A DNA stretch of 64,000 nt from an uncultured Candidatus Berkelbacteria bacterium (GCA_963698075.1 OY969116.1:798131-862130); one strand, 5' to 3'; counted from the first letter of the stretch, positions 30,192 through 47,170 are shown. The notes: a model not told the origin generated them from the letters alone. Numbers and translations: made by a program.

Positions 30192-30378
30192 ATCAAGTTC
30201 TCTGTTTAGCTTAAACCTTAGGTGAAAACTGGGCACTTTTTTAATTATTTTTCCATTACAATATTTGGTAATTTGGGTTAGCTGAATTATTTAGATTATA
30301 TAGTAAATCGGTCTCACTTAACGCGTAGTAGTAAAATGAGAGCAGTCATCGAGACGCTCTCATTTATATTTTGTAGGT

Positions 30379-31779
30379 TTAGATCCTTTTGATAACAGGT
30401 CCGGATTTGCTGTCTTGAACTTCATATCCGTGTTTGAGTAACTCTTCGCGAATCGTGTCGGCTCTTGCCCAGTCGTGGTTGGTTCGGGCTCTTGATCTTT
30501 CTTCGATTAGAACACGAACTTCATCTGGTATAGTTTCTTCTCTGATTCTGAACGGGTCTATGCCCAAGACTTGGTCAAAGGATCCCGCTATCTTGATCTT
30601 CATAGCGGGAGCGATTCTCGGGCTATCGACGACTCCCCAGAGTACGGCTAGGGCTTTCGGCGTATTGAGGTCATCGTTTATGTTTTGGAGGAAGCGTGTC
30701 CTGTACTCGTCGAAAATTGGATCGTTCGCTTTCACTTCACCCTGGTTTTGACCCCTCAGGTCGATAAACTTCTGTCTTAGTCTTTTGAGGGCGTTCTTGG
30801 CTCCGTCCAGCCCCTCAAATGTGAATTCGAGGGGACTACGATAATGTGCTCCCAAAAGGTAATAACGGTAGTCAAGCGGATCGTAGCCTCGGTCGATAAG
30901 GCTTTGGAGCGTCAGGAAACCACTACCTGACTTCGCCATTTTTTCGTCACCACCGACGATCAAAAAATCGTTGTGTAGCCAGTAGGAAACCCATTGGTGA
31001 CCAAGGGCGCCTTCGCTCTGGGCGATTTCGTTGGTGTGATGAACGGGAATGTGATCAATTCCCCCTGTGTGTATGTCAAATCTTTCGCCGAGGTATTTGC
31101 TTGCCATGGCTGAGCATTCGATGTGCCAACCTGGAAAGCCTCGTCCCCATGGCGAATCCCAGAGCATCGCATGACTGGAGTACTTATAGAAAGTAAACCA
31201 GAGCACAAAATCATGGGGAGACCGCTTATTGGGATCTTTCTCCACTCGAGCAATGTTTGAGGATTTGCTTAGATTTAGCCTTGCCAATCTTCCGTAATCC
31301 GGGAACTTAGAGGTGTCGAAGTACACATTGCCACCCGCGACGTACGCCAACCCGCGTTCTTCCAGACGCCTGATCATGGCGATGATTTCGGGAATATGTT
31401 GAGTTGCTGGGCATATGATGTTAGGCCGCTCGACTTGCAATAACTCTAAATCGTGAAGAAAAGCCTGAGTGTAGAAATCGGCGATTTCCCAAACAGTTTT
31501 CCCTTCTCGGGTTGCACTTTTCTCGATTTTATCTTCGCCTTCATCGGCGTCACTAGAAAGATGTCCTACGTCGGTGATGTTCATAACATGTTGAACATCG
31601 TAACCATTTACGCGAAACATCTTCTTAAGTGTATCGGCAAAAACGTAGGCCCTCAGATTGCCTATGTGGGCATAATTGTAAACTGTCGGGCCACAGGTGT
31701 ATATCCCGACTTTTCCAGGGACAAAGGGTCTGAAAACCTCTTTCTTTCGACTCATCGTGTTTGTGAGCTTAATCTCCAT
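30379..31779 (-). CDS. cysS: cysteinyl-tRNA synthetase
   Basis: [13 protein letters not shown] and KMAKSGSG motifs. Start placed at MEIKLTN, which has a GAAAGGAGG RBS. Confidence 0.95.
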
Positions 31780-31888
31780 TTTGTAACCTCCTTTCGCAAG
31801 GTGGGACTGAAGTATGTTATCCCTGAATACAAGGGATGATGAATGATCCATCCCTCTTGCATAATTTTATAATAAAATTATGCTTATG

Positions 31889-32899
31889 TCAATCACTAAT
31901 CTCCGAGAGCTTAGAAAACATTTTGTTGTTTAATAATTTTCTCGCCATTGAATTTGTGAGGACCTGTTTTAATTCTTGTTTTGATTTTACTAAGAAAAAG
32001 GATAGAAAGCCGTGGACATCACTTTTTTCTTGGGCATTGAATTTATTTTCAATCAATCGGAAGAACCTATCAATGTATGGGTCTTTTATTAATTGATATG
32101 AATCAAGATTTTTATAAGAATATTCATAAGGATTTTCGGGAAAATTTTTAATATTCTTTTTTACATACATAGATATTTCTTGATAAAGTTTATTTAAAAA
32201 TCTGATTCTTCTTTCAACATCTTCTTTCAGATAACTTTTAATTTTCATAGCCTCTTTTAAATTATTAAGACAATCCTGCGGCACAAAGGGAAAAGTTGCC
32301 AGAAAAGGTATGCTCCATTTTTTATGAGGCATAAATTGTTTATTAATGAGAAACAAGAGCTCAATTATTGAATCTACGCCATCGTTAATTAAATAATGAG
32401 CTGTCTCTGGGAATCCTCTTTTAAGTGCTCTTCGGGTGTGTATATTGACGTGCCAATTATATTGTCCCATTATCTTGATGATTCTGTTCTTTCTGTATGT
32501 TTCATCATGTTGAATTTTTCTTTCAATGAATTTTTTAACTTTTTCATTTTTATCGTAGACCAACAATCCATTAGCGAAAACAGCCTTTTTCCCTTCGGGC
32601 CATTCATTCCATTTATTTATCAGGTTTTCCTGATGTATATTAAATTCTAAAACTCTATTTTTATATTTGAGGTGAAATTCAAAACCTGGAAGATAGTCTG
32701 GAATGTTCTTTGTGTTGATAAAAATTGCCATATCCAAATCAGAAAATTTATCAATAAATCTTCGTTTCCCGAGTCCTCCGAGTAATACAATTCCTTCAAT
32801 CTCTTTCTTGGATTGAAAATTGGATACTAACAATTCGATTAATTCGTCGTATTGTTTTTTAATATTGAATGTTTTTAATTTTAACGTCATTTTGGACAT
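31889..32899 (-). CDS. Pol-beta-superfamily nucleotidyltransferase-like protein
   Basis: GGLGKRRFIDKFSDLDMAIF fits the minimal NTase motif (G[GS]x9-13DxD); lies in a very AT-rich island. Confidence 0.45.
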   Translation of the reverse strand: MSKMTLKLKTFNIKKQYDELIELLVSNFQSKKEIEGIVLLGGLGKRRFIDKFSDLDMAIFINTKNIPDYLPGFEFHLKYKNRVLEFNIHQENLINKWNEWPEGKKAVFANGLLVYDKNEKVKKFIERKIQHDETYRKNRIIKIMGQYNWHVNIHTRRALKRGFPETAHYLINDGVDSIIELLFLINKQFMPHKKWSIPFLATFPFVPQDCLNNLKEAMKIKSYLKEDVERRIRFLNKLYQEISMYVKKNIKNFPENPYEYSYKNLDSYQLIKDPYIDRFFRLIENKFNAQEKSDVHGFLSFFLVKSKQELKQVLTNSMARKLLNNKMFSKLSEISD

Positions 32900-32900
32900 G

Positions 32901-33737
32901 TTATCTAATTTTAATGTGTCTAATTTTTACACTTTGCCCGAAAACTATCTTCGCCAACGAATTTATGTTTCTTGACCATTCTTTTATTTCACCCGTGGTG
33001 TAGAATATTACATTTTCTAATTTTTTATTTGATTCGTCGAAGGGTCTCTTCTGTCTAAAAAATTCTGTAATCATATTACCTGGATCTAAATAAATTAAAT
33101 TTTTCCCAAATTCTATTTTTATCTCCTCTTGTATAAAACAAAAGCAGGTGCATCCCAGTAATACACCGTCTAAACTGTATTCTTTATATGATTTTAAATT
33201 TTTTAATATTCTATTTTTTCCCTCATTCGTATTGTGTTGTCCTCTTGCGATAACCGCTTCGCTTTCTGTTAAAATAAAATTTACCATTTTTTGGGGTTTG
33301 GCCATTTTAATGAGTTTAAAATATAATCCTGAATTTATTGTGTATTTAGTACCCAATACACCAATATTTCTATTACCTATAAAAACGGCAGAGTCTTTTA
33401 AAAGCAATTTTAACAGATCTACCATAGTTATAATTGTTATGTTGTATTTCTTTGAAATAATATTTTTAAAAGAATTTATAGCTATTGACGCTGTATTGCA
33501 GGCGACAACCAATAAAGTGAGTTTACTAATTTTGTTAAAATATCTCAGCCAACCGTCTACAATATTTATAATCTCTTTTTTAGATTTCAATCCGAATGGG
33601 TTCATCTCACCGTCAGCAAGAAATATAACATTATATTCTCCAATTTTATCTGAAAGATTTTTTAAGACAATGATACCACATGCGCATGAATCGGCAATTA
33701 ATATGGTTTTTTTAGTTTTGTCTAGTTTCTTATTCAT
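32901..33737 (-). CDS. Asp/Glu/hydantoin racemase family protein (MurI-like)
   Basis: Both catalytic-cysteine motifs are present: VVACNTASI and LLGCTCF. Confidence 0.65.
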   Translation of the reverse strand: MNKKLDKTKKTILIADSCACGIIVLKNLSDKIGEYNVIFLADGEMNPFGLKSKKEIINIVDGWLRYFNKISKLTLLVVACNTASIAINSFKNIISKKYNITIITMVDLLKLLLKDSAVFIGNRNIGVLGTKYTINSGLYFKLIKMAKPQKMVNFILTESEAVIARGQHNTNEGKNRILKNLKSYKEYSLDGVLLGCTCFCFIQEEIKIEFGKNLIYLDPGNMITEFFRQKRPFDESNKKLENVIFYTTGEIKEWSRNINSLAKIVFGQSVKIRHIKIR

Positions 33738-34920
33738 ATCCTTTTTTATTATAAGAATCCAATAAGATTTTTGCCATTCCGTTCATGGTTATTTGCATTT
33801 CTAAAGCGGGGCTACTATTACCCTCAATAACAATCGCTCCATCGGGAGTAAGTGTTATATCCCAGCCAATACAAGTAATAGTTGGAAAAAGATTGGCACA
33901 TTTAATCGCTAGATTGGTGACTTGCTTAATCTGTTTTACTTTTTTATTTCTAAATACGTATCCAGAGTTAATGTGAGCAGAATAAGTGTCTAATTTTCCA
34001 TCGTAAGCAATATTAGCCATTGAACCATCTTTAATATCAATCTGAAGATGTAGTCCACCTCCATGAACATTATCAATAAAAGATTTATTTATTCCACATC
34101 GCAGCGTACAAGCTAAAACACTAGTCCCTGTAAAGTGAGAGAAGTATGTTAGGACTCTGAAGGTATTTACCGAGGAGGAGTTAATTTTTTTTAATTCTTC
34201 GATTTGTTCTATACCTTCTTGTAATATCCAATCTCTAAAAGATAAGGTTTGCAGATATTCAATATCAAGCTTGATCTTTTTATCATTTTTAAAGATCATT
34301 TTACTTTTATCATACAAGAAAAGCATTATTTCATTACCGCCGCTTCCGGCATCAGCCGGCTTCATGAAGATTCTCTTTGATTTTGTAGAACTTAATGTTT
34401 TATTTAATTCAGCATTATTTTTAATTATTTCACAATCTTTATTGAATATTGTTCCTCTTTTTATTTTTATTAATGTGGTTGGTATTGGTATTTTGTAACC
34501 CCTGCAGATTTCCTCAAATATATTTTTGTCGTCAAGAAGCCATATATTTTTGTTTATTTTAGGCAAAATTTTGTAATACATAACTGTTTCGGGCATAAAG
34601 TTTAGTACCTCTTTATATGAGAAACTTTTGTCATACAACTTGTACCTGAAATAGTGAAACGGAAGGCATCGCCATGCTAAGGTTAACTTAATAAGCTCTA
34701 ATAGGGTCCCAATGAACCCCTTTTTGTTTTTATATTGTGAGAATTGAGCGATTTGATTATTTTTAAAATCTTTAACTTGGTATAAAAGCCATTTTGGCCA
34801 GGCATAAAATCGCAATCCCAGCGCTTCCATTTTCTCATATGAGATTTGGATGTTTTTATTAAAACTCATCGATTTATTATTTTTCATTTTCGAATTCGAC
34901 TTTAGAAAAAATAAGTACAT
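33730..34920 (-). CDS. ATP-grasp-like ligase (sugar-transfer-associated ATP-grasp family, putative)
   Basis: FMKPADAGSGGNEI P-loop-like motif; ~396 aa; overlaps the racemase gene. Confidence 0.4.
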   Translation of the reverse strand: MYLFFLKSNSKMKNNKSMSFNKNIQISYEKMEALGLRFYAWPKWLLYQVKDFKNNQIAQFSQYKNKKGFIGTLLELIKLTLAWRCLPFHYFRYKLYDKSFSYKEVLNFMPETVMYYKILPKINKNIWLLDDKNIFEEICRGYKIPIPTTLIKIKRGTIFNKDCEIIKNNAELNKTLSSTKSKRIFMKPADAGSGGNEIMLFLYDKSKMIFKNDKKIKLDIEYLQTLSFRDWILQEGIEQIEELKKINSSSVNTFRVLTYFSHFTGTSVLACTLRCGINKSFIDNVHGGGLHLQIDIKDGSMANIAYDGKLDTYSAHINSGYVFRNKKVKQIKQVTNLAIKCANLFPTITCIGWDITLTPDGAIVIEGNSSPALEMQITMNGMAKILLDSYNKKGYE

Positions 34921-35029
34921 CTTTCTTTGGAGAATATTATCAGGTTATTTATTCTTTGTCAAGCTATCCCTGAAAATGTAAGTCTAAAGTTATAAAAAAG
35001 AAGAATCCGTCCCGGAGTGGGACGGATGA

Positions 35030-35371
35030 CTAGAACTCGAGTTCTGAAAGGTGAAAGTCTTGGACGGTAGAGAAGGCTCCAACCATCCAGGCTCGAAGAT
35101 TAGTGGTAACGAACTCTCTAAGGATGACGCAGATGGCCTCCTCGATCTCATCCTTGTTTGTTTGGGCGTTTGCTTCCTTGGTATCGATGTGGATCTGGGC
35201 GAAGAGACCAGCGCTGTCGGATAAGTGGGATGGAACGATCTCGACGAAAATCGGTTTGACGATGGTGTCGATATTCAGTATCTCAGCAACCTTGCTCTGA
35301 ATATTGTCTCGCAGAGCTTTCTGTTCGTCTGGGCTGATGGTGTCAGGTATGCCGTAAATGTGGATGAGCAT
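35030..35371 (-). CDS. tandem tautomerase-fold-like small protein, paralog A
   Basis: Two beta-alpha-beta halves resembling 4-OT (LIHIYGIP...DEQKALRDNIQSKVAEIL...PIFVEIVP). ~90% identical to 43375..43716. Has its own promoter and terminator. Confidence 0.35.
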   Translation of the reverse strand: MLIHIYGIPDTISPDEQKALRDNIQSKVAEILNIDTIVKPIFVEIVPSHLSDSAGLFAQIHIDTKEANAQTNKDEIEEAICVILREFVTTNLRAWMVGAFSTVQDFHLSELEF

Positions 35372-35560
35372 CGGTTTCCTCCAGTGAGACGCTTTAGGGT
35401 TATTATCTCACATTTTATAGAGATGTCAATGTTTTTGAACCTTTCTCATTTCCTGCTATAATGAAAATAAGTCTAATCTTTTTATATATGGAAAATAAAT
35501 CAATTCCGATTATTAATTCATATAATGAATGGGATCCTTTAGAAGATAACGGAGGGGTTT

Positions 35561-37384
35561 TTGGAATTAGTTTACATTAGTTTAACTGGGATAATCTCGT
35601 TATTAACTTTAATTTTTGGGATAAGAGTACTATTGGCAGACCGAAAATCAGTCATTAACCGCGCTTTTGCAATATTTTCCGTATTAACTGTGATGTGGCT
35701 GATAATAGACTTTAGTACTTACGAGCAAAGCCTTGCTGATTATCAGACTATACTTTGGAAAATAATTTTCCTGGTCATAATTCTAATGGTTTTTTCTTTG
35801 ACTTATTTTATTAATTATTTTCCTAGGACATATATAAATTTTAGCTCCCTAGGGAAAATAATAATTTTTTCGATTACAATTATCATCGCAGTACTAAGTC
35901 TTTTACCAAATTTTATTGTCGATTATGCTTACATGCAGGATTATGGCTCAAATTTTCAGCAAGGTAAATATTTTATTGTATTTGTATTATATGTATCTAT
36001 TCTCTCTATCTTTATACTGATTGCCCTAATTAACAAATTTATTAAGTCTCGAGGGCAAGAAAGACAGCAATTAAAATATTTACTCTATGGTTTATTGGTG
36101 TTCGTTTTATTAAACTTATCATTTAATATGTTTATTCCTATGATCACTAAGACCTTTCTTTTAGCAAGGATCGGCAGTTATTCTTCGATAATTTTTGTAG
36201 GTTTCCTTGCCTACGCAATCTTAAAAACCCATCTTTTCAATATCCGCATTATCTTAACCGAATCCGCAGTTGTGATTATTGATGTTATTTTGACGGTTCA
36301 GATATTTACTTCGCATTCAACAATGGAGGCATTATTAAGAGCAATGTTTGCTGTTTTTGTGTTTTACGGAAGTTATATTTTAGTTAGATCAGTGAGGCGC
36401 GAGATTAAATTTAGGCAAGAGTTACAGGTCATGACCGAACAGTTAGCCCGGGCCAATGAGCATCTTAAGGAACTTGATGCGATGAAGACGGAGTTTGTCA
36501 GTTTGGCCAGTCACGAGTTGTTAACACCCGTCTCCGCCATCGAAGGATATTTAAGCATGCTTTTGGATGAGCATATGGCCAAAGTGGAAGATCCAACAGC
36601 CCAAAAGTATATGGACCGTGTTTATTCTTCCGCAAAACGATTAGCGCGTCTCGTCACCGATATGCTTAATGTATCAAGAATCGAGGAAGGACGGCTCCTC
36701 GTTGAGAAAAAAGAAATTGATTTATCAAAACTCATTAACGAGGTCATCGAAGAGATTAAATTTAAGGCCGAAGAAAATAAGCAAAAAATTGTTTTTGAAA
36801 ATCCTGACGGCTGGAACACTTTCGGTGATCCTGACAAACTCAAAGAAGTGGTGCTTAATGTTATCGGTAATTCAATCAAATATTCCAAAAATCCCGGCAC
36901 CATTACAATCAAAATCGAAAAAGTCCCGACCGCGCGGGTCGCCGAAAAATGGAAAAAAGTGGAGGATGAAATCAAAGCCCGGCCATTGGACGATCAAGAA
37001 GCAATTAAATCGGCGGTTGATGAACATTTCCACGCTTTAGTCGGGTCCCAACAACTAATAATTTCCGTTCAAGATCAAGGCATTGGCATACCCAAAGAAG
37101 AATTGCCGCGTTTGTTTAAAAAATTTCATCGCGTTGGCGACTACACCACTGCCGAATCGCAGGGCACAGGCCTCGGTCTCTACATTTCTCGCGCTTTAGT
37201 CGAGCTCCATCACGGCCGAATCTGGGCCGAATCCGAAGGTCCTTCCCACGGCTCAACCTTCACTTTTTCTCTGCCGGATATATCTTCCAAAGATGAACTC
37301 TTAAAAATGGAAGCCCAAGCTCCGCAGCCGAAGGAGCAATTAAAACCTTTGGCAAAGCCAGTGAAAGAAGCGGAAGAGATCTAG
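35561..37384 (+). CDS. sensor histidine kinase with N-terminal 7TM receptor domain
   Basis: Seven N-terminal TM helices, H-box LASHELLTPVSAIEGYL, HATPase_c (GTGLGLYISR). Confidence 0.85.
   Translation: MELVYISLTGIISLLTLIFGIRVLLADRKSVINRAFAIFSVLTVMWLIIDFSTYEQSLADYQTILWKIIFLVIILMVFSLTYFINYFPRTYINFSSLGKIIIFSITIIIAVLSLLPNFIVDYAYMQDYGSNFQQGKYFIVFVLYVSILSIFILIALINKFIKSRGQERQQLKYLLYGLLVFVLLNLSFNMFIPMITKTFLLARIGSYSSIIFVGFLAYAILKTHLFNIRIILTESAVVIIDVILTVQIFTSHSTMEALLRAMFAVFVFYGSYILVRSVRREIKFRQELQVMTEQLARANEHLKELDAMKTEFVSLASHELLTPVSAIEGYLSMLLDEHMAKVEDPTAQKYMDRVYSSAKRLARLVTDMLNVSRIEEGRLLVEKKEIDLSKLINEVIEEIKFKAEENKQKIVFENPDGWNTFGDPDKLKEVVLNVIGNSIKYSKNPGTITIKIEKVPTARVAEKWKKVEDEIKARPLDDQEAIKSAVDEHFHALVGSQQLIISVQDQGIGIPKEELPRLFKKFHRVGDYTTAESQGTGLGLYISRALVELHHGRIWAESEGPSHGSTFTFSLPDISSKDELLKMEAQAPQPKEQLKPLAKPVKEAEEI
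37292..37384 (+). repeat. direct repeat copy 1 (native 3' end of the 7TM histidine kinase)
   Basis: gatgaactcttaaaaatggaagcccaag...aaagaagcggaagagatctag. Confidence 0.65.
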
Positions 37385-37435
37385 CCCCTTGACAAACATA
37401 CAAAATTTGTATATTATAACATTAGAGGTAAAAAA

Positions 37436-37660
37436 ATGGCAATTAAAACTGTCAACATCTCATTCCCAGACAATGTTCTTAAGCAAATTGACGAGTTTGC
37501 GAAAAAAGAAGCTTTAAGCCGAAGCGATGTTTTAAGAATTGGTGCCAAAAAATATATTCGTAATTTTACCGAATGGCAGCTTTTGCAGGAGATTGGCGAA
37601 AAACAAGCTAAAAAACTTGGTTTAGACACGGAAGAAAAGGTCGTTAAAATCTTGCAATGA
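37436..37660 (+). CDS. ribbon-helix-helix (CopG-family) antitoxin
   Basis: 74 aa with RHH N-terminus; TTGACA-17-TATATT promoter immediately after the HK stop; 4-nt overlap with the PIN gene. Confidence 0.6.
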   Translation: MAIKTVNISFPDNVLKQIDEFAKKEALSRSDVLRIGAKKYIRNFTEWQLLQEIGEKQAKKLGLDTEEKVVKILQ

Positions 37661-38076
37661 AAATTGTCATTGATAGTTCGGTTTGGATTGCGGGGATTGG
37701 TTCTCGTACCGGCTTTGCTAGCCAGATTATTTTTAAATCATATAAAAGTTCTCAAATTGAAATTTTTATCTCAAATAAGATTTTGGATGAAATTTCGATT
37801 AATTTAGAAAAAAAGTTAAAATTCGACACCTCAACTAGTCATCGAGCCCGACAAACTGTCAGAAATCTATGTGACTTTGAAGTCGAAGTGAGCTCCAGAG
37901 ATGAGAAAACAATTAGCAAGAGATATCCTGAAGATAAACATATTCTTGCTTTATGCCGAAAGATTCAAGCTGATTATTTGATCACATTTGACCGCAAACA
38001 TTTGTTACCTTTGAAAAAATTCGATCGAACTTTAATTTTAGAACCCAAGGATTTTGTCAAAGTGATGAACTCTTAA
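37657..38076 (+). CDS. PIN-domain toxin (VapC-like)
   Basis: MKIVIDSSVWIA N-terminus with the acidic D and a later LITFD motif; overlaps the RHH gene. Confidence 0.7.
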   Translation: MKIVIDSSVWIAGIGSRTGFASQIIFKSYKSSQIEIFISNKILDEISINLEKKLKFDTSTSHRARQTVRNLCDFEVEVSSRDEKTISKRYPEDKHILALCRKIQADYLITFDRKHLLPLKKFDRTLILEPKDFVKVMNS

Positions 38077-38156
38077 AAATGGAAGCCCAAGTTCCCAAAA
38101 CCAAAGAAGCCCTCAAGCCTCTCGCCCGTCCGGTCAAAGAAGCGGAAGAGATCTAA
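38064..38156 (+). repeat. direct repeat copy 2 (after the RHH-PIN cassette)
   Basis: 28-nt identical core plus a conserved ...aaagaagcggaagagatctaa end. Confidence 0.65.
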
Positions 38157-38182
38157 AAGTCGTTTTCCAGTATAATAAATTC

Positions 38183-38737
38183 ATGACATTAGTTGTTATT
38201 AGCTACCCTAAAATTGACGATAGACAATTCAGATGGATTCAATCTGTAAGAAAAGAGTACGATGAACTCTATTTTAACGTGATCAACCCCCACTTTACCT
38301 TTGTATTTCCTTTAACATCTGTATCGCAAGGACAATTGATACAACATATAGCGAATCAATTAATTGGGCAAAAACAAATAGATTTTATTCTTACGAAAGC
38401 GATAGTTGAGAAAGATGCTTTCATTGACTATACCCATACTTTTCTTGTTCCCGATAAGGGTTATGATACAATTGTTAAATTACATGATAAATTATACACA
38501 GGCATTCTAGAACCAGAGCTCAGGAGAGATATCCCTTATATTCCACATATAGGTATTGGTAATGACAAAAATCCACAGGTTTGCAAAAAGTTAACCAACG
38601 AAATTAATTGGAAAAAAATTTCTATTGCCGGTAGAATTGGAAATATAGACATTGCCGAGTACAAAAATGATGAAGTCGTTACTATAGAGAGATTAGAACT
38701 CTTCAAGAGGAATCCGAAGTTTCCCAAGACCCAATAA
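38183..38737 (+). CDS. 2H-phosphoesterase-superfamily-like protein (LigT-like, putative)
   Basis: Two H-x-[TG]-x motifs (PHFTFVFP and PHIGIG) at LigT-like spacing; 184 aa. Confidence 0.35.
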   Translation: MTLVVISYPKIDDRQFRWIQSVRKEYDELYFNVINPHFTFVFPLTSVSQGQLIQHIANQLIGQKQIDFILTKAIVEKDAFIDYTHTFLVPDKGYDTIVKLHDKLYTGILEPELRRDIPYIPHIGIGNDKNPQVCKKLTNEINWKKISIAGRIGNIDIAEYKNDEVVTIERLELFKRNPKFPKTQ

Positions 38738-38785
38738 GCTCTTAAGCCACTCGCCTGGTTAATGAAGCAGGCGGAAGAGATATAA
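38736..38785 (+). repeat. direct repeat copy 3, decayed (after the 2H-phosphoesterase-like gene)
   Basis: aagctcttaagccactcgcctggttaatgaagcaggcggaagagatataa. Confidence 0.5.
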
Positions 38786-38869
38786 AATTATTTATTTGAT
38801 CTACAAACTATTGATTTTTAAATCATATTCTTTTAGAATTAGACTAACCAGTTGAACCAGGAGACAGAC

Positions 38870-39139
38870 ATGGAGCGATTCGTCAAGATTGTTATTGAAG
38901 GCGAAACCACTGATAACCTGTGGTCCCAGATCGACTCAATCGATGGTATCCAGATGGTTGAGCGCATCCGTACTTCCTCCCAGGCAGTAGCGTTTTACCG
39001 TATCGAGGCCAGCAAGTTTGACTGTGCCTCAGAGAGATTGAGGACCTATGGGGAGATTTCTGAACTGGACGCCGACGAGCAGAAAAGGTTGTTGGTAAGA
39101 TACAATACCATGCAGCGAATTGCAGCTGCAAGGCTATAG
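38870..39139 (+). CDS. hypothetical protein (GC-richer mini-island)
   Basis: Own TTGATT-17-TAGAAT promoter, CAGGAGA RBS and a terminator hairpin at ~39165-39195. Confidence 0.3.
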   Translation: MERFVKIVIEGETTDNLWSQIDSIDGIQMVERIRTSSQAVAFYRIEASKFDCASERLRTYGEISELDADEQKRLLVRYNTMQRIAAARL

Positions 39140-39268: not shown

Positions 39269-40975
39269 ATGGAATCTCAAGAAAAATTGGAAATTTTAAG
39301 GCATTCCTGCGCTCATTTATTGGCGGCGGCCATTCACGAAATTTATTCTGGCGCCAAATTTGCGATTGGGCCTTCAATCGAAAATGGTTTTTATTATGAT
39401 TTCGGTTTGCCAAAAACTTTAACCCCTGAAGATCTAAAAAAAATCGAAGCCAAAATGCATGAGCTTTCCAAAAAGGACTTGCCGTTTGAAAAATCGGAAT
39501 TGTCTAAAAAAGAGGCGATTGATAAAGAGAAAAAAGCCAAGCAAAACTACAAAGTTGAACTCATAAACGATATTCCCGATGAAAAAGTCATCTACTTTAC
39601 GACGGGTGATTTTGTTGATCTCTGTCGTGGTCCGCATGTAAAGTCCACTGGCGAGATTGGACATTTCAAGCTTTTAAATATTGCCGGTGCCTATTGGCGG
39701 GGCGATGAGAGAAACCCGATGCTTCAAAGAATCTACGGTACCTGTTGGGAAAGCGAAAAAGATTTAGAAAAGTACCTTGAAATGCTTGAACAGGCAAAGC
39801 TCCGTGACCACCGAAAGATCGGCCAGGATTTGGATTTGTTCTCTTTTCATCCCGAAGCCCCGGGGATGGTTTTCTGGCATCCCAAAGGCAAAGTGATTTT
39901 TGATTTATTGGTAGATTTTTCCCGCGAGAAATCAAAAAAATTTGGCTACCAAGAAGTTTTGACGCCCAACGTTTTAAACATCAATATTTGGAAGGTTTCT
40001 GGTCATTGGGATCATTACAAAGATGCGATGTACTTTGCCGGCGGCAATGAAGCAAAGGAGCAAAATTTTGGAATTCGTCCCATGGGTTGTCCTGGCTCGA
40101 TTTTAATTTACAAAACCAAAACTCATTCTTATAAAGATCTGCCGATTCGTTACTCTGAGTTTGATACTTTGATGCGTAAAGAACTTTCGGGGACTTTACA
40201 CGGATTGTTTAGGGTCCAACAGTTAACACAAGACGATGCTCATTTGTTTTTACGCGAGGATCAGATTCTTGAAGAGATCACTTCAGTTTTAAAACTGGTA
40301 GATGAAACTTATAAAGAATTAGGGCTTCGATACACGATTAATCTTTCCACCCGACCATCTGATTTTATGGGCAAAATCGAAACCTGGGAAAAAGCCGAAA
40401 AAGACTTAAAAGAGGCACTTAAGAAAAGTGGTTTTGAGTATAAAATCAAAGAGGGCGACGGAGCATTCTACGGTCCGAAAATTGATATTGATGTTCTGGA
40501 TGCTTTAGATCGAGCCTGGCAGTGTTCGACGATTCAGCTTGATTTTCAAATGCCGGAGAAATTTGATTTAGACTTTGTCGACGGAAAGAGGAAAAAGGTT
40601 CGGCCGGTGATGATTCATCGCGTGATTTTGGGTTCAATTGAAAGATTCACTGGCATTCTGCTTGAGCATTTTGGCGGCGCTTTACCGACTTGGCTTTCGC
40701 CGACCCAGGCCATTGTCCTGCCGGTTTCCGATAAGCACATTGAATATGCGAAAAAAGTAGCCGAAGACTTTAAGGGTTTCCGGGTAGCAGTTGACGAACG
40801 GAACGAATCGCTCGGTAAAAAAATCCGCGATGCCGAACTTCAAAAAGTCCCATTTATAATTGTGGTTGGCGATAAAGAGATAAGCGACAAAAATATCACC
40901 ATTAGAACGCGCGGCTCAAGGGACCTCAAAGTCTCTAATATCGAGAAATTAATTAAGCTCATAGGCGAAAAATAA
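39269..40975 (+). CDS. thrS: threonyl-tRNA synthetase (short form)
   Basis: Class II aaRS with ThrRS editing/catalytic motifs (HSCAHLLAAAI..., FRVQQLTQDDAH). Confidence 0.95.
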   Translation: MESQEKLEILRHSCAHLLAAAIHEIYSGAKFAIGPSIENGFYYDFGLPKTLTPEDLKKIEAKMHELSKKDLPFEKSELSKKEAIDKEKKAKQNYKVELINDIPDEKVIYFTTGDFVDLCRGPHVKSTGEIGHFKLLNIAGAYWRGDERNPMLQRIYGTCWESEKDLEKYLEMLEQAKLRDHRKIGQDLDLFSFHPEAPGMVFWHPKGKVIFDLLVDFSREKSKKFGYQEVLTPNVLNINIWKVSGHWDHYKDAMYFAGGNEAKEQNFGIRPMGCPGSILIYKTKTHSYKDLPIRYSEFDTLMRKELSGTLHGLFRVQQLTQDDAHLFLREDQILEEITSVLKLVDETYKELGLRYTINLSTRPSDFMGKIETWEKAEKDLKEALKKSGFEYKIKEGDGAFYGPKIDIDVLDALDRAWQCSTIQLDFQMPEKFDLDFVDGKRKKVRPVMIHRVILGSIERFTGILLEHFGGALPTWLSPTQAIVLPVSDKHIEYAKKVAEDFKGFRVAVDERNESLGKKIRDAELQKVPFIIVVGDKEISDKNITIRTRGSRDLKVSNIEKLIKLIGEK

Positions 40976-40981
40976 AAAACA

Positions 40982-41908
40982 TTGAAAATACTTAAGAATC
41001 TTTACGGTAAAGAAAAAAACGATGAGTATTTCAAGTTGCTTTTATCGGCCGGGGAAGGGTTTTTAGTAGAAACGTTGATTGGTAAATGTGTCGTTTCAAA
41101 AAAAGGACTTTTTCCTAAACTAAATCTCCCAGATAGTTCTTTAAGAAAAACACACGTGTTCTGTTGTGTTTCTACTCAAATTGGCTGCGTCAACACTTGT
41201 CGTTTTTGCAATAATCGAAAAAAGCGCTTCGTAAGAAATTTAAGTCTGTCAGAAATAAAACAAGAGGTAGATGAAGCTCAAAAAATCTCCCGAAAATTCT
41301 TTGGTCAGAGACTGGAGGAAATTCAATTCGGGGGGATTGGTGAGCCGCTTCTGAATTTGGAAAATGTTATCCGGACAATCGAAATCTTTCACAAGGAAGA
41401 CCAAAATGTCTTTTTTGGGTTTCCGACAACTGGCTTACCGCTAAAAAATTTTCAAAAATTGATTAGAAAATTTTCTGACAAACTCTTGCCAATTTACTTA
41501 CAGATCTCTTTGCACGCCTCAAATGATATTCTTAGGAAAAAAATAATGGGTGTGGGAAACATCCGTCAGATTATACAACTGGCCCAAGAATATTCGGAAA
41601 AGGTTAAATCTCCTGTTATTATTAACTACTTAATGATTCGACAAGTTAATGATCAAATCTGCTTTGCGGATGAGCTCATCCGTTTGTTAGACCAACATTC
41701 GTTAACAAATAAGGTGGTTGTCAAACTATCAATACCAAATGATACAAACACGAAATTTAGCTGTCCGTCGGATGAAAAAAGAATAGACGAATTTAAAGAA
41801 AGACTCGTATCGGCTGGAATTGATGTGGCTGTCTTCGTTAGCGGGGGGAAATCTGTGAAAGCCGGGTGCGGTCAACTTACGGTTTCCCATCAAAAAATCC
41901 AAAAATAA
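40982..41908 (+). CDS. RlmN/Cfr-family radical SAM RNA methyltransferase-like protein
   Basis: CVSTQIGCVNTCRFC cluster motif, GIGEPLLN, and C-terminal GGKSVKAGCGQL, which matches the RlmN second catalytic Cys. Confidence 0.7.
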   Translation: MKILKNLYGKEKNDEYFKLLLSAGEGFLVETLIGKCVVSKKGLFPKLNLPDSSLRKTHVFCCVSTQIGCVNTCRFCNNRKKRFVRNLSLSEIKQEVDEAQKISRKFFGQRLEEIQFGGIGEPLLNLENVIRTIEIFHKEDQNVFFGFPTTGLPLKNFQKLIRKFSDKLLPIYLQISLHASNDILRKKIMGVGNIRQIIQLAQEYSEKVKSPVIINYLMIRQVNDQICFADELIRLLDQHSLTNKVVVKLSIPNDTNTKFSCPSDEKRIDEFKERLVSAGIDVAVFVSGGKSVKAGCGQLTVSHQKIQK

Positions 41909-42010
41909 CAGCAAAAATTGTTTTTTTGTTCTAATTGTGTTTTAATGGATGTGCGAAACGTGTGCAGTGTCGTTCTGCCATGTTTTGTAGAACATTGAAA
42001 GGAGAAGGGC

Positions 42011-42067
42011 ATGAAGAGGTACGTACGCCCGACCATCAGGCGGATCGCCCGCATCACGACCACCTAG
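42011..42067 (+). CDS. candidate RiPP precursor peptide (18 aa, MKRYVRPTIRRIARITTT)
   Basis: AAAGGAGAAGGG RBS then ATG, located 5' of a PqqD-like RRE and an rSAM-SPASM gene; highly cationic, no Cys. Confidence 0.35.
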   Translation: MKRYVRPTIRRIARITTT

Positions 42068-42144
42068 GGGCGATTCGCCGGAAGCCGCACAAGAGGAGGA
42101 GGTTTACACAACTCCTCCTCTATTCGTAGTAAAGGAGAAAGGAA

Positions 42145-42390
42145 GTGTTGAAAACCGCCGAAGGAGTCAGATTCAGTCCCACGGAACCTCTGGTCTACCA
42201 CGATCAGGATTTGTTTGAGGCTAACGAAGTCACCTTGCGGATTCTCGATCTCTGTCAGCAGCCGCAGGACCAGGAGGATCTAGTCGCCCGGCTCGGTTGC
42301 GAATATCAGGTCGCCGAGAACGAATTGGCAGATGATGTTTCCGCTATCGTCTCCGACCTGGTTCAATGCGGCATTCTGGTGGAAGTGTGA
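42145..42390 (+). CDS. PqqD-family RiPP recognition element protein
   Basis: 81 aa with the PqqD pattern (EANEVTLRILDLC...QEDLVARL...DVSAIVSDLVQCGIL); GTG start with AAAGGAGAAAGG RBS. Confidence 0.65.
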   Translation: MLKTAEGVRFSPTEPLVYHDQDLFEANEVTLRILDLCQQPQDQEDLVARLGCEYQVAENELADDVSAIVSDLVQCGILVEV

Positions 42391-43292
42391 TGGCCAGCGT
42401 CTATCCCGTCACCGTCATGTGGAACTTCGGCTATCAGTGCAATATGAATTGCATCCACTGCTACTCAAGACAAGACGCCAGGGCAAACATCGAACACGAA
42501 ATGACACTGGTGCAGGCCGAGCACATTGCTGCCGAGATAATCGCCGCCAAAGCCGTCCATACCCATTTCGGAGGGGGTGAGTCCTTGATGAGACCAGACT
42601 TTGGTCCGATCGCTTCCTCACTGACGAGCACCGGCATTAACGTGAGTCTAAGTTCCAATGGGGCGTTTATCGATGAAAGCACAGCGAATCTCCTTCGAGT
42701 TATACCTCTCGATTTTGTTTCCTTGAGTTTTCACGGTATCAAAGCCGCAACGCACGACGCATTCACCCGTCATCCGGGTTCTTTCGACGGTTTGCTACGA
42801 GCGGCTACCATTCTCAAGGCGGCCGGCGTGAGGACGAAGATCGTTTTCTCGCTCCACGCTCGTAGCAGAGATGAGGCCCCCGGGGTCTTTGATCTGGCGC
42901 GAGAGTGCGGTGTTACCTTCGTGCAGTTTGCCTATGTCAAAGCCGTGGGAAACGCGGCCGAAAACCTCACAAGTTTGCAGTTGAGTCCTTCAGAATGGGT
43001 AGCTTTGTATTCGGCAATCCGCACCCAGGCCGAATCTTACCCTGATCTGAATATTCACTTTGGTCTAGACAACAATCCCATAATCGCAGGCTATGTGGGG
43101 CAAACCATTCTCCCATGTCCGTGCGGAAGATATTCGATCGCAATCAAGCCCAATGGGGATGTCTCCCCGTGCAATGTCGTTACTACCGTCGTGGGAAACG
43201 TCTATCGCCAATCCCTGCTCGATATTTGGCAAGAGGCACCGGAGCTTATCAAAATCCGCTCCGGGACGGCAAATCCCTGCGCCTCCTTTTAA
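42390..43292 (+). CDS. radical SAM enzyme with C-terminal SPASM/twitch domain (PqqE-like peptide maturase)
   Basis: CNMNCIHC cluster motif near the N-terminus and a C-terminal CPCG...SPC auxiliary-cluster Cys motif; 1-nt overlap with the PqqD-like gene. Confidence 0.8.
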   Translation: MASVYPVTVMWNFGYQCNMNCIHCYSRQDARANIEHEMTLVQAEHIAAEIIAAKAVHTHFGGGESLMRPDFGPIASSLTSTGINVSLSSNGAFIDESTANLLRVIPLDFVSLSFHGIKAATHDAFTRHPGSFDGLLRAATILKAAGVRTKIVFSLHARSRDEAPGVFDLARECGVTFVQFAYVKAVGNAAENLTSLQLSPSEWVALYSAIRTQAESYPDLNIHFGLDNNPIIAGYVGQTILPCPCGRYSIAIKPNGDVSPCNVVTTVVGNVYRQSLLDIWQEAPELIKIRSGTANPCASF

Positions 43293-43374
43293 CGAATCCG
43301 ATCCAGTAGAGGGAGTTCATACTCCCTTTTCGTTTATATAAAGAAGAATCCGTCCCGGAAGGGGACGGATGATG

Positions 43375-43716
43375 TTAGAACTCGAGCTCCGAAAGGTGGA
43401 ATTCTTGGACGGTGGAGAAGGCTCCAACCATCCAAACTCGAAGATTAGTGGTTGCGAATTCTCTTAGGATGACGCAGATTGCCTCTTCGATCTCGTCCTT
43501 GTTTGCTTGGGCGTTTGCCTCCCTGGTGTCGATATGAATCTGAGCGAAGAGGCCAGCGCTGTCGGAGAAGTGGGATGGGACGATCTCGACGAAAATCGGC
43601 TTGATCATCTCGGTAATGTTCAGAATCTCAGCGACTTTGCTCTGAATCTTATCTCGCAGAGCTTGCCGTTCATCTGGGCTGATGGTGTCAGGTATACCGT
43701 AAATGAGGATCAGCAT
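43375..43716 (-). CDS. tandem tautomerase-fold-like small protein, paralog B
   Basis: ~90% aa identity to 35030..35371, with matching promoter and terminator flanks. Confidence 0.35.
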   Translation of the reverse strand: MLILIYGIPDTISPDERQALRDKIQSKVAEILNITEMIKPIFVEIVPSHFSDSAGLFAQIHIDTREANAQANKDEIEEAICVILREFATTNLRVWMVGAFSTVQEFHLSELEF

Positions 43717-43817
43717 GCGATTCCTCCGCGCGGCGTTGTTAGAACTATTATGACACCTTTTAAATAAATGTCAACTGTTGACAAAATTTCTAGTTATTAT
43801 ACAATTAAAATACCAAA

Positions 43818-44040
43818 TTCAAAACCAATGACCAGGAGAATGGGCCTGCGAGGTGCAAGGTGAAAGCTTTAGCCAGTAGCCAATGCCGGGCGTTCCCGTG
43901 AAAGAACAAAGGTATGTCGGTTGAAAATACCGGAGTGCCTAAAAGAGGTCTCGCCTCGGCGGGGCAATGAAGGTGGTACCGCGGAAGAGAGGTCTTTCGT
44001 CCTTCTAAACTCATTTTAGAAAAACGAGAGACCTTTTTTC
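43818..44040 (+). promoter_or_regulatory. T-box riboswitch leader with intrinsic terminator
   Basis: Canonical T-box sequence AATGAAGGTGGTACCGCGG at 43966-43984, overlapping the 5' arm of the terminator GGTCTTTCG...CGAGAGACC-TTTTTT (43988-44040). GGTGAAAG distal-loop-like motif upstream. Confidence 0.65.
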
Positions 44041-44055
44041 ATTAGAAAGGGAAAA

Positions 44056-46231: not shown

Positions 46232-46333
46232 TTTAATGCACCGTTCGTTTTTATTTGACTTGACACAGAAATCTATGTACAATAATTTTAGGAATCAAAA
46301 AAGCGAGGGGATTTTTGTATAGAAAGGGGCCTT

Positions 46334-47146: not shown

Positions 47147-47170
47147 ATCCGATAATTTACAAGGAGCAAT

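What the first reader, a model, noticed from the sequence alone, without database searches (positions are those of the whole stretch)
37292..38785. Serial cassette insertion at the 3' end of a histidine-kinase gene, marked by three decaying direct repeats of the HK tail
The last ~90 nt of the 7TM-HK gene (…gatgaactcttaaaaatggaagcccaag…aaagaagcggaagagatcta[ga]) recur after the RHH-PIN toxin-antitoxin pair (38064-38156) and, more degraded, after the 2H-phosphoesterase-like gene (38736-38785). Each inserted gene's own 3' end runs into the repeat: PIN ends …KVMNS* inside it, and the 184-aa protein ends …NPKFPKTQ*. So each cassette arrived carrying, or regenerated, the attachment sequence. This is the signature of site-specific integration into a gene 3' end, akin to tRNA/tmRNA-targeting islands or integron-like cassette arrays, but using a protein-gene tail and no visible integrase.
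Basis: seen in the sequence. Interest (0 to 1): 0.6.

Follow-up and report, generated by a model that had tools for sequence, protein, structure and literature searches.

The report
Displaced kinase-gene tails mark gene insertions
Behind a sensor-kinase gene of a tiny candidate-phylum bacterium, small gene cassettes have piled up one after another, each leaving behind a fossil copy of the kinase gene's last ~90 bases; comparison with relatives points to ordinary plus sloppy recombination, not a dedicated integrase, as the cause.

Summary
The last ~92 nt of the 7TM histidine-kinase (HK) gene (t1, 37292-37384) recur ungapped after RHH-PIN (t2, 38064-38156) and, in frame, at the end of the 2H gene (t3, 38693-38785), and nowhere else in the 64 kb.

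The integrase/integron-like reading is not supported. In 17 related Patescibacteria (Berkelbacteria-like) loci, the gap between HK and its response regulators is a gene-insertion hotspot:
- Two loci are empty.
- Four other species carry displaced HK tails; one array has four.
- Left edges of the copies vary from -35 to -181 nt.
- Copies continue past the stop codon into native spacer.
- No recombinase lies in any array or among 29 window ORFs scanned with Pfam, and there is no attC-like hairpin.
- The same RHH-PIN pair follows HK in three other species with no repeat after it.
- The joins clip the cargo genes, with a 6-nt microhomology at 2H/t3.
- The copies are allelic HK ends, differing mostly at synonymous sites, not decayed duplicates.
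- t3 with its downstream gene is the native HK junction in another species.

Best explanation (confidence 0.68): 3'-end displacement by homology-anchored plus illegitimate recombination, as at rhs and T6SS effector loci. This is a new variant of a known kind.

One feature is unexplained: the 5' block of the tail has the highest synonymous-site conservation in the whole HK gene.

The parts
28611..30191 (+). Conserved 526-aa gene that abuts HK in most relatives. It is the left backbone marker of the locus.
   Evidence: Homologous ~510-526-aa gene lies directly upstream of HK in L007, L009, L010, L011, L020, L028 and L031. No Pfam match.
30192..35560 (.). Upstream variable interval of 5.4 kb: cysS, DUF4037/NTase, racemase, ATP-grasp and copy A of the 113-aa gene, all on the minus strand.
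   Evidence: Pfam. This interval is absent in relatives where the 526-aa gene abuts HK. The GC content of the 31.9-34.9 kb block is 27-33%.
35561..37384 (+). 7TM histidine kinase (HisKA_7TM, HisKA, HATPase_c) with a conserved C-terminal tail peptide. Its conserved 3' half is the proposed homologous anchor.
   Evidence: Pfam. 280 homologues, with the tail conserved as ..KMEAQxPxxKExLKPLA[RK]PxKxAEE[ILM]*. Mosaic HKs have a breakpoint just before the H-box.
37292..37319 (+). 5' block of the tail (GATGAACTCTTAAAAATGGAAGCCCAAG). It is identical in t1 and t2 and has the highest synonymous-site conservation in the HK gene.
37292..37384 (+). t1: the resident, functional HK tail including the TAG stop.
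37389..37417 (+). Promoter-like site (TTGACA-17-TATTAT) of the RHH-PIN cassette, starting 5 nt after the HK stop.
   Evidence: 11 of 12 matches. The same spacer is conserved upstream of RHH in L029 and L033.
37436..37660 (+). RHH (CopG-type) antitoxin, 74 aa.
   Evidence: Pfam RHH_1 / HicB_lk_antitox. A 74-aa homologue precedes PIN in L029, L032 and L033.
37657..38076 (+). PIN_3 toxin, 139 aa. Its last 4 codons and stop (VMNS*) are encoded by t2 in another frame.
   Evidence: Pfam. The family's native C-terminus is ..EPKDF[IV]K plus 2-8 aa.
38064..38156 (+). t2: a displaced HK tail, intact in the HK frame and allelic to t1.
   Evidence: It is closer to the tails of L031, L024 and L025 (0.77-0.79) than to t1 (0.71). 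A t2-like peptide is the functional tail in P0003/L020.
38183..38737 (+). 2H phosphoesterase (2_5_RNA_ligase2), 184 aa: a native ~173 aa plus 11 residues read from t3.
   Evidence: Pfam. 110 homologues, modal length 174 aa, covering 94% of the query and ending ..TIE[RQ]I.L.
38693..38785 (+). t3: the oldest displaced HK tail, degraded (in-frame TAA at 38735-38737). It is joined to 2H at a GAACTC microhomology.
38786..39139 (+). Native spacer with a promoter-like site (38811-38839) and an 89-aa gene (38870-39139). This stretch follows the functional HK tail in L008.
   Evidence: 38733-39140 aligns continuously with L008 1647-2053 (68.5% over 410 nt, E 3e-55). Promoter scan.
39269..46333 (.). Rest of the variable HK-RR interval: thrS, rSAM, PqqD-like, rSAM-SPASM, 113-aa gene copy B (minus strand), Glu/Leu dehydrogenase and aminotransferase.
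   Evidence: Pfam. Absent from the empty sites in L007 and L010.
46334..47551 (+). Two response-regulator genes (270 aa and 126 aa). They form the right backbone flank of the hotspot.
   Evidence: Pfam. Orthologous RR pairs follow HK in all loci that reach that far.

Best explanation
The interval between this HK gene and its response-regulator genes is a gene-insertion hotspot in a clade of Berkelbacteria-like Patescibacteria. The repeats are fossil HK 3' ends left by successive '3'-end displacement' events.

Inferred mechanism. DNA from a related lineage carries the conserved 3' part of HK, its tail and stop, and whatever gene lay downstream of HK in the donor. It pairs with the resident HK through the highly conserved catalytic half, which acts as the homologous anchor. 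The non-homologous far end is joined illegitimately, at a few bases of microhomology, back into the resident HK's last 35-181 nt. The mirror-image event is equally possible, with the anchor in the downstream flank and the illegitimate join at the cargo gene's end.

Outcome. HK stays intact with an allelic tail, the cargo sits behind it, and the former tail with its native downstream spacer is pushed distally. There it is no longer part of HK and decays. Once an array exists, ordinary homologous recombination between tail copies and between conserved flanks can move, delete and reshuffle cassettes.

Proposed order of events in the window:
1. HK-t3-spacer-89aa-thrS, a junction that is still native in L008.
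2. Arrival of t2 with 2H.
3. Arrival of t1 with RHH-PIN.

Shown: hotspot, empty sites, arrays in five species, variable edges, allelic origin of the copies, clipped cargo genes, mosaicism.
Inferred: the recombination pathway, its polarity, and DNA entry by natural transformation.
For: 1. Hotspot. Empty sites occur in L007 and L010, and unrelated insertions of 0.7-9.3 kb between HK and RR occur in the window and 13 other loci.
2. Displaced tails occur in five species: window (2), L002 (1, E 3e-7), L008 (2), L024 (1, 89% over 83 nt), L025 (4). P0132 is a further PIN-tail fusion.
3. Left edges are -35, -45, -57, -57, -70, -79/-83, -89, -92, -134 and -181. The right side runs through the stop codon into native-type spacer.
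4. The copies are allelic coding ends. Differences from the resident tail by codon position total 23/12/58 (chi-square p = 8e-9). L024 copy 2 has 7 of 8 differences synonymous. L025 copy 3 is an intact 45-codon fragment from another HK subclade. Most copies are nearer to another species' functional tail than to their own HK.
5. t3, its spacer and the 89-aa gene form the attached, functional junction in L008.
6. The RHH-PIN cassette follows HK with no repeat after it in L029, L031 and L033. In L033, PIN's stop runs into the spacer that follows HK directly in L019.
7. The joins clip cargo genes. PIN's last 4 codons come from t2. 2H has a native end ..ERLEL followed by 11 residues from t3, with GAACTC shared by both partners.
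8. Homologous exchange is active here. L024 and L025 are about 98% identical in backbone, but their HK sensor halves are ~45% identical, switching to 96-99% just before the H-box. They also differ by 104 nt versus 2.27 kb inside the array. L025 copy 2 is a mosaic of two other copies.
9. No recombinase or transposase is found in any array or among 29 window ORFs, and there is no hairpin.
10. Known precedents show the same architecture (PMC2935791, PMC5361080). Patescibacteria are reported to carry homologous-recombination and competence genes (PMC12455944). Integrase-free hotspots with recombination at flanking core genes are common (PMC5635113).
Against: - The pathway is inferred from end products; no intermediate or event was observed.
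- Homology-facilitated illegitimate recombination is rare in the species where it has been measured (PMC5361080), yet at least 8 independent joins are seen here.
- Cargo genes always abut the displaced copy (0-13 nt or overlapping). Random illegitimate joins would not predict this without added selection or compaction.
- The 5' block of the tail is the most conserved stretch of HK at synonymous sites, and 3-4 of about 10 left edges fall in it. That would fit a specific recombination site.
- Only 64 kb of a 929-kb genome was inspected for recombinases.
- Clear microhomology is shown for only one join (2H/t3).
- Polarity (anchor on the left or on the right) is not resolved.
Confidence: 0.68

Rival explanations
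1. Site-specific integration by a recombinase encoded elsewhere (a tyrosine/serine recombinase or Xer-like enzyme acting in trans). The conserved 5' block of the HK tail would be the attachment core. Small integrase-less cassettes carrying a replacement tail would integrate there one after another, as at tRNA or gene 3' ends or in integrons.
For: - The same gene end is hit in five species.
- The 5' block is the most conserved stretch of HK at synonymous sites, also after correcting for codon bias.
- Left edges of t2, t3 and L024/L025 copy 2 fall within that block.
- Cargo is rich in toxin-antitoxin pairs, which are typical integron or island cargo.
- The replaced tail keeps HK intact, as integrative elements do for their target genes.
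Against: - Left edges span -35 to -181, with four different ones in a single array.
- Repeats continue 35-70 nt past the stop into native spacer.
- The same RHH-PIN cassette has no repeat after it in three species.
- The joins clip cargo genes and fuse reading frames.
- No recombinase is found in about 45 kb of inserted DNA across the loci or in the window.
- There is no hairpin.
- The 19-mer of the block is absent from 2.9 million viral contigs.
- The bases around the stop codon differ between species.
Confidence: 0.12
2. Campbell-type homologous recombination of small circular intermediates, which is Jackson's rhs model. Recombination between two tail copies excises a circle (tail fragment plus cassette). 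After transfer, the circle integrates by a single crossover into another genome's HK tail, duplicating the fragment. This is a sub-variant of the best explanation that needs no illegitimate join for spread, only for the first event.
For: - Variable-length core fragments are expected under this model (PMC2935791).
- There are direct repeats of 80-180 nt with identity blocks of 28-65 nt at their 5' ends.
- Gene conversion between copies is seen.
- L024 and L025 differ by a block bounded by conserved segments.
Against: - It does not explain how each distinct join arose (at least 8 different cargo/tail joins).
- It does not explain the clipped cargo genes.
- Transformation delivers linear single strands, not circles (textbook knowledge).
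- No circles were observed.
- The identity blocks are short for RecA-type crossovers.
Confidence: 0.12
3. Decay of tandemly acquired whole HK genes. Complete second HK loci were inserted in tandem, and the redundant HK copies were then whittled down by deletion until only short 3' stubs next to the following gene's promoter remained.
For: - The copies are allelic HK ends from other lineages.
- Stub lengths vary.
- Long HK repeats would be unstable, so only short stubs would survive (inference).
Against: - All of about 10 stubs are 181 nt or shorter out of a ~1.8-kb gene, with no long HK pseudogene in 17 loci.
- The young L024 copy (89% identical) is already only 83 nt and abuts PIN.
- The 6-nt microhomology and in-frame fusions fit a single join better than serial deletions.
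Confidence: 0.05
4. Artefact or generic repeat: a chimeric metagenome assembly of strain variants, or a dispersed REP/MITE-type element unrelated to HK.
For: The sequences come from metagenome-assembled genomes.
Against: - The window and the Logan assembly L001 are identical over 18,204 nt.
- L022/L023, L026/L027 and L031/L032 are identical across samples.
- The same architecture appears in five species from different projects.
- No copy lies outside the HK-RR interval in the window or in any locus.
Confidence: 0.02

Closest known systems
rhs 'C-terminal displacement' arrays (Jackson et al. 2009, PMC2935791), and the analogous orphan modules at mafB and cdiA loci
   Same: - A full-length gene is followed by dissociated 3' fragments.
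- Each fragment begins with a piece of the conserved part of the gene, and the length of that piece varies.
- Incoming DNA supplies a new 3' end and shunts the old one downstream.
- A given end is attached to the gene in some genomes and unattached in others.
- No integrase is involved; homologous recombination in the conserved region is invoked.
   Different: - Here the anchor gene is a two-component sensor kinase, not a polymorphic toxin.
- The exchanged 3' end is a conserved tail peptide with an equivalent sequence, not a variable toxin domain, so the protein's function does not change.
- The cargo is unrelated free-standing genes with their own promoters (toxin-antitoxin pairs, 2H phosphoesterase, rSAM+CYTH, thrS), not cognate immunity genes.
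- The fragments are much shorter (35-181 nt).
Sequential displacement of T6SS effector-immunity modules in Vibrio cholerae by homology-facilitated illegitimate recombination (Kirchberger et al. 2017, PMC5361080)
   Same: - Arrays grow because an incoming module is anchored by homology upstream and joined illegitimately downstream.
- The old 3' end and its downstream gene are pushed back.
- Complex arrays then spread by ordinary homologous recombination.
- The authors note the parallel to integrons and the absence of any integrase.
   Different: - There is no effector/immunity logic here and no evident selection for retaining the displaced genes.
- The host is a CPR/Patescibacteria bacterium.
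- The microhomology join and the clipping of cargo genes are documented here at sequence level for 2H/t3 and PIN/t2.
Integrative islands that target the 3' end of tRNA, tmRNA or protein genes and carry a replacement 3' end
   Same: - The target gene is kept intact by a replacement 3' end.
- Direct repeats of the gene's 3' end flank the insert.
- Tandem accretion gives several repeats.
   Different: - Those elements encode, or depend on, a specific integrase, and the displaced fragment starts at a fixed crossover point.
- Here no integrase is found and the edges vary within one array.
- Units are only 0.6-0.8 kb.
- The same cassette occurs without any repeat in other species.
Integron cassette arrays
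   Same: - A one-directional array of small, mostly single-operon cassettes lies next to a fixed site.
- Toxin-antitoxin cassettes are prominent.
- A repeat follows each cassette.
   Different: - There is no intI, no attI, and no attC-type imperfect palindrome (folding z-scores about 0).
- Cassettes have their own promoters.
- The repeats are coding-gene fragments of allelic origin.
Integrase-free HGT hotspots between core genes (Oliveira et al. 2017, PMC5635113)
   Same: - A variable interval between conserved neighbours shows rapid gene turnover, no recognisable mobile element, and recombination in the flanking core genes.
- The paper reports over-representation of hotspots with fewer mobile elements in naturally transformable bacteria.
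   Different: That general description does not include serial duplication of a flanking gene's 3' end. The fossil tails here give an unusually explicit record of individual insertion events.

Membership tests
Integron | An intI tyrosine recombinase gene adjacent to the array, with attI | tested here: not met
   Pfam scans of 29 window ORFs, including every ORF from 28 to 48 kb, and precomputed Pfam or own scans for all genes in the arrays of L002, L008, L024 and L025 found no Phage_integrase or any other recombinase.
Integron | Each cassette ends in an attC site: an imperfect inverted repeat that folds into a hairpin as a single strand | tested here: not met
   DNA folding of t1 and t2 on both strands gave z-scores from -0.54 to +0.32 against shuffles. 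The homologous RHH-PIN cassette has no repeat after it in L029, L031 and L033.
Integrase-mediated island at a gene 3' end | Integrase gene inside or next to the inserted element | tested here: not met
   None in any of the inserted intervals examined. An enzyme acting in trans from elsewhere in the 929-kb genome cannot be tested with this window.
Integrase-mediated island at a gene 3' end | The displaced 3' fragment starts at a fixed crossover position, giving a constant repeat edge | tested here: not met
   Left edges are -35, -79, -134 and -181 within L025 alone, and -45 to -92 elsewhere.
Integrase-mediated island at a gene 3' end | The insert supplies a replacement 3' end, so the target gene stays intact | tested here: met
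   HK keeps a complete conserved tail in every array, and the displaced copies are allelic tails.
3'-end (C-terminal) displacement array (rhs/mafB/cdiA/T6SS type) | A full-length gene followed by dissociated 3' fragments of the same gene | tested here: met
   Window t2 and t3; L002 copy 2; L008 copies 2 and 3; L024 copy 2; L025 copies 2-5.
3'-end (C-terminal) displacement array (rhs/mafB/cdiA/T6SS type) | Each fragment retains a conserved-core piece of variable length | tested here: met
   35-181 nt of the HK 3' end. Copies 3 and 4 of L025 reach into the HATPase-coding region.
3'-end (C-terminal) displacement array (rhs/mafB/cdiA/T6SS type) | The same end is attached to the gene in some genomes and unattached in others | tested here: met
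   t3, its spacer and the 89-aa gene are unattached in the window but form the functional HK end in L008 (E 3e-55). The t2-type peptide is the functional tail of P0003/L020.
3'-end (C-terminal) displacement array (rhs/mafB/cdiA/T6SS type) | The exchanged end encodes a variable toxin domain followed by its cognate immunity gene | tested here: not met
   The exchanged end is a conserved 30-residue tail. The cargo genes are unrelated to HK (RHH-PIN, 2H, rSAM+CYTH, MNT-HEPN, thrS). This locus works like these arrays but is not a polymorphic-toxin locus.
Homology-facilitated illegitimate recombination | One end is integrated through a homologous anchor | tested here: inconclusive
   The L024/L025 mosaic has a breakpoint just before the H-box and shares [HK 3' half + PIN cassette + copy 2] at 96-99%. 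This shows crossovers in conserved HK sequence but does not tie one to a specific insertion.
Homology-facilitated illegitimate recombination | The other end is joined at a short (3-10 nt) microhomology | tested here: inconclusive
   At the 2H/t3 join, GAACTC is shared by the native 2H end (family consensus ..IE[RQ]I.L) and the HK block. At PIN/t2, only AAAG/CAAAG is possible. For the other joins the donor sequences are unknown.
Homology-facilitated illegitimate recombination | Uptake of linear DNA by natural transformation | not testable with these tools
   Type IV pilus genes (PilM/N/O, T2SSE/F) flank the locus, and the literature reports comEC and pili in Patescibacteria (PMC12455944).
REP/MITE-type dispersed repeat | Many copies scattered in intergenic regions, unrelated to a particular gene | tested here: not met
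   No copy lies outside the HK-RR interval in the 64-kb window or in 17 loci. The copies keep the HK reading frame.
Transposon target-site duplication | Identical short duplication created from one template at insertion | tested here: not met
   The copies differ mostly at synonymous sites (23/12/58 by codon position, p = 8e-9), so they are alleles from different lineages, not one duplicated template. No transposase is present.

The most novel reading that the evidence does not exclude
The 16-28-nt block at the start of the tail (core AAAATGGAAGCCCAAG) is conserved at synonymous sites beyond anything else in HK across 13 species. It could be a genuine recombination site embedded in coding sequence and used by an unidentified enzyme encoded elsewhere. 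That would make this an integrase-remote, integron-like cassette platform specific to CPR bacteria.

A second untested reading: the internal ATG of that block starts a 25-residue micro-protein (MEAQ...AEEI). This ORF remains intact in t2, L024 copy 2 and L025 copy 4, and begins 3-11 nt after the PIN stop. The displaced tails could therefore still be translated.
Probability: 0.1. Interest if true: 0.8.

Novelty: new variant of a known kind. Interest (0 to 1): 0.45.

Why it matters
CPR/Patescibacteria have tiny genomes, few recognisable mobile elements and no genetic tools, so how they acquire genes is largely inferred.

- This locus gives a base-level record of successive acquisitions. Each fossil tail is a time-stamp that also carries the allele of the lineage it came from, and no integrase is involved.
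- It extends the '3'-end displacement' architecture, known from polymorphic-toxin loci, to an ordinary signalling gene with arbitrary cargo. Any gene with a highly conserved 3' half next to a tolerant spacer may therefore act as a landing pad.
- It is a ready-made place to look for accessory and defence genes in these bacteria, and a candidate neutral insertion site if genetics becomes possible.
- It also warns against reading direct repeats of a gene end as proof of site-specific integration.

Tried and rejected
- attC-like folding of the repeat: no structure beyond shuffles.
- Further copies elsewhere in the window (nhmmer --max, blastn, tblastn): none. No other duplicated gene end in the 64 kb.
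- Recombinase hunt by Pfam in 29 window ORFs and in all array genes: none.
- tRNA, tmRNA or Rfam element at the site: none. The only hits are tRNA-Gln and tRNA-Glu near 19 kb.
- Viral-contig scan for the 19-mer of the 5' block, as a possible attP on a phage: 0 hits.
- L011's odd HK tail was first taken for an insertion scar. It is a lineage-specific long tail shared by P0004, P0012, P0028 and P0045, so that idea was dropped.
- L019's 2H gene upstream of HK was considered a relocated copy of the window's cassette. It is only 24% identical, a distant paralogue, so that idea was dropped.
The predicted donor arrangement 'HK-tail-2H' was therefore not found.
- The identity blocks could not be used to fix the polarity of insertion. 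The 5' block is conserved across species anyway, and gene conversion between copies occurs, so polarity stays open.
No near-identical strain of the window organism lacking one cassette was found.

Full report
**1. The observation**

The window holds three ungapped, in-register copies of the HK gene's last ~92 nt:
- t1, 37292-37384: the real end of the 607-aa 7TM histidine kinase (ORF 35561-37384; HisKA_7TM, HisKA, HATPase_c).
- t2, 38064-38156: after an RHH antitoxin (37436-37660) and a PIN_3 toxin (37657-38076).
- t3, 38693-38785: merging in frame with the end of a 2H-phosphoesterase gene (38183-38737, Pfam 2_5_RNA_ligase2).

Identities over 95 nt are 70/95 (t1/t2), 65/95 (t2/t3) and 51/95 (t1/t3). 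blastn E-values are 6e-16 and 2e-13, and a profile search finds no further copy in the 64 kb. No other gene end in the window is duplicated in this way. An independent assembly of the same organism is identical over 18.2 kb.

**2. The copies are alleles, not decayed duplicates**

In the HK frame, t2 is an intact tail (DELLKMEAQVPKTKEALKPLARPVKEAEEI*), and 14 of its 23 differences from t1 are at third codon positions. The same holds in other genomes. L024's extra copy differs from the resident tail at 8 positions within the repeat, 7 of them synonymous. L008's copies still read KEALKPLARPTKAAEDI* and KKESLKHLARPTKAAEDI*. L025 copy 3 is an intact 45-codon fragment of a different HK subclade. Pooled over intact copies, differences by codon position are 23/12/58 (chi-square p = 8e-9).

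The tail is a conserved peptide across at least 30 HK homologues, and both t1-like and t2-like versions serve as functional tails in close relatives. Most copies are somewhat closer to another species' functional tail than to their own HK. This excludes a target-site duplication.

**3. Comparative anatomy: a hotspot with empty sites**

HK orthologues (40-83% identical) come from Berkelbacteria-like Patescibacteria. The backbone is a ~520-aa gene, HK, two response regulators, then type IV pilus genes on the opposite strand.
- In L007 and L010 the first regulator starts about 100 nt after the HK stop, so these sites are empty.
- Elsewhere the interval holds 0.7-9.3 kb of unrelated genes.
- In the window it is 8.9 kb (37385-46333).

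Displaced tails occur in four further species:
- L002: one copy, after rSAM+CYTH genes.
- L008: two copies, the first overlapped by the end of thrS.
- L024: one copy.
- L025: four copies, one after each of PIN, PBECR2-DUF2283 and MNT-HEPN, plus a 35-nt remnant.

**4. Evidence against a site-specific mechanism**

- Left edges lie at -35, -79, -134 and -181 within L025 alone, and at -45 to -92 elsewhere.
- Copies do not stop at the stop codon. L025 copies 2 and 3 and L024 copy 2 continue into the native-type spacer that follows HK in L019.
- Window t3, its spacer and the 89-aa gene align continuously with L008's functional HK tail, spacer and 89-aa gene (E 3e-55).
- The homologous 74-aa RHH + PIN cassette, with the same promoter spacer, sits right after the HK stop in L029, L031 and L033 with no tail copy behind it. 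In L033, PIN's stop runs straight into the native spacer. The cassette therefore does not carry the repeat.
- The joins cut into the cargo genes. PIN's family ends ..EPKDF[IV]K plus 2-8 residues, and the window's VMNS* is read from t2 in another frame. 2H homologues are about 174 aa and end ..TIE[RQ]I.L. The window protein has that end (..TIERLEL) followed by 11 residues read from t3, and GAACTC is common to both partners at the join. P0132 is a PIN fused in frame to a tail at about -45.
- No integrase, transposase or other recombinase is present in any array or among 29 window ORFs.
- The repeat does not fold better than shuffles. No RNA gene lies at the site. The block's 19-mer is absent from viral contigs.

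**5. Evidence for homologous exchange at the locus**

L024 and L025 are about 98% identical in backbone segments but are mosaics. Their HK sensor halves are ~45% identical. Identity jumps to 96-99% just before the H-box and runs through the tail, the PIN cassette, copy 2 and 70 nt of spacer. Then 104 nt in one genome faces 2.27 kb (two cassettes and three tail copies) in the other, and HD_4 is again 98% identical. L025 copy 2 carries a central patch matching copy 4, which indicates gene conversion between copies.

**6. Most likely mechanism**

The pattern matches 3'-end displacement. Incoming DNA from a related lineage pairs through conserved HK sequence and brings its own tail and downstream cargo. 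The non-homologous end is joined illegitimately into the resident HK's last 35-181 nt. The mirror image, with the anchor downstream, is equally possible. The old tail, with its native downstream context, is pushed distally. Ordinary homologous recombination then spreads and reshuffles the arrays.

For the window, the proposed order is HK-t3-89aa-thrS, then t2+2H, then t1+RHH-PIN. The pathway, its polarity and the route of DNA entry are inferred. Patescibacteria are reported to have recombination and competence genes (PMC12455944), and pilus genes flank the locus.

**7. Comparison with known systems**

The architecture is that of rhs C-terminal displacement: a full gene followed by dissociated tips with core fragments of variable length (PMC2935791). 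It also matches sequential displacement of T6SS effector-immunity modules by homology-facilitated illegitimate recombination (PMC5361080). It fits the class of integrase-free hotspots with recombination at flanking core genes (PMC5635113).

It differs in three ways: the anchor is a signalling kinase, the exchanged end is functionally equivalent, and the cargo is unrelated free-standing genes. It fails the defining tests for integrons and for integrase-borne islands.

**8. What remains unexplained**

- The first 16-28 nt of the tail (core AAAATGGAAGCCCAAG) are the most conserved stretch of HK at synonymous sites in 13 orthologues, also after correcting for codon bias. Its excess is 0.27, against 0.16 for the best unrelated window. 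Three or four left edges fall in it. This keeps a specific-site model alive at low probability.
- Cargo genes always abut the displaced copy.
- The first insertion of RHH-PIN directly after the HK stop has no visible scar.

**9. Verdict**

The integrase/integron-like mechanism is not supported; homology-anchored 3'-end displacement is the best explanation (0.68). This is a new variant of a known kind, of moderate interest (0.45).

Noticed in passing
window 34997-35371 and 43340-43716: A ~375-nt direct repeat (86-94% identical), consisting of a 113-aa gene on the minus strand plus its terminator hairpin. It brackets HK, the cassettes, thrS and the rSAM genes. The gene has no Pfam match and is GC-rich (~50%) relative to its surroundings. 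In L019 its homologue also sits next to rSAM/SPASM genes, so it may belong to a RiPP-like cluster (rSAM 40982-41908, PqqD-like ORF, rSAM-SPASM 42366-43292).
   Followed up: partly
window 30192-35560: A second variable interval lies upstream of HK. About 5.4 kb (cysS, DUF4037/nucleotidyltransferase, Asp/Glu racemase, sugar-transfer ATP-grasp, 113-aa gene) separates HK from the conserved 526-aa gene that abuts it in most relatives. The block from 31.9 to 34.9 kb is only 27-33% GC. No repeat of the 526-aa gene's end was seen.
   Followed up: partly
window 39269-40975 and 30379-31851; L008 4332-6053; L021 1993-4968; L022 11899-12621: Aminoacyl-tRNA synthetase genes (thrS, cysS, a pheS-like gene, hisS-like genes) lie inside the variable intervals around HK in several species. 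In L008 the end of thrS runs into a displaced HK tail. Apparently essential genes are therefore part of the shuffled cargo.
   Followed up: no
L024 10001-11887 vs L025 6086-7960: The HK genes are mosaics. Two ~98%-identical genomes carry unrelated sensor (7TM) halves (~45% identity) joined to a near-identical catalytic half, with the switch just before the H-box. The same pair also differs by a toxin-antitoxin swap upstream (HTH_3+Gp49 versus HEPN+MNT).
   Followed up: partly
window 37292-37319 and orthologous positions in 12 loci: The stretch AAAATGGAAGCCCAAG inside the HK tail is conserved at synonymous sites more than any other part of the gene (GAA in 13/13, GCC in 12/13). It contains an in-frame ATG that would start a 25-residue peptide, which is still intact in several displaced copies.
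   Followed up: partly
HK orthologues P0002, P0005, P0006, P0012, P0013, P0025 (position of FENPDGW, window residues ~412-418): Many orthologues carry 20-40-residue low-complexity inserts at the same point between the HisKA and HATPase regions. The window's HK has none.
   Followed up: no
P0132 (960-nt contig): A PIN homologue is fused in frame to an HK tail (..PKDFIRGIE|GLKPLARPTKEAEEL*). This is another independent cargo/tail join, at about -45.
   Followed up: partly
window 58111-58260: Tandem 18-24-nt repeats (4 copies of a 42-nt family) lie inside an ORF encoding a Pro/Thr-rich segment on the minus strand.
   Followed up: no
window 848-1678 (-): A 276-aa ORF has an N-terminal PhdYeFM antitoxin domain and a long C-terminal extension, which is unusual for an antitoxin.
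   Followed up: no
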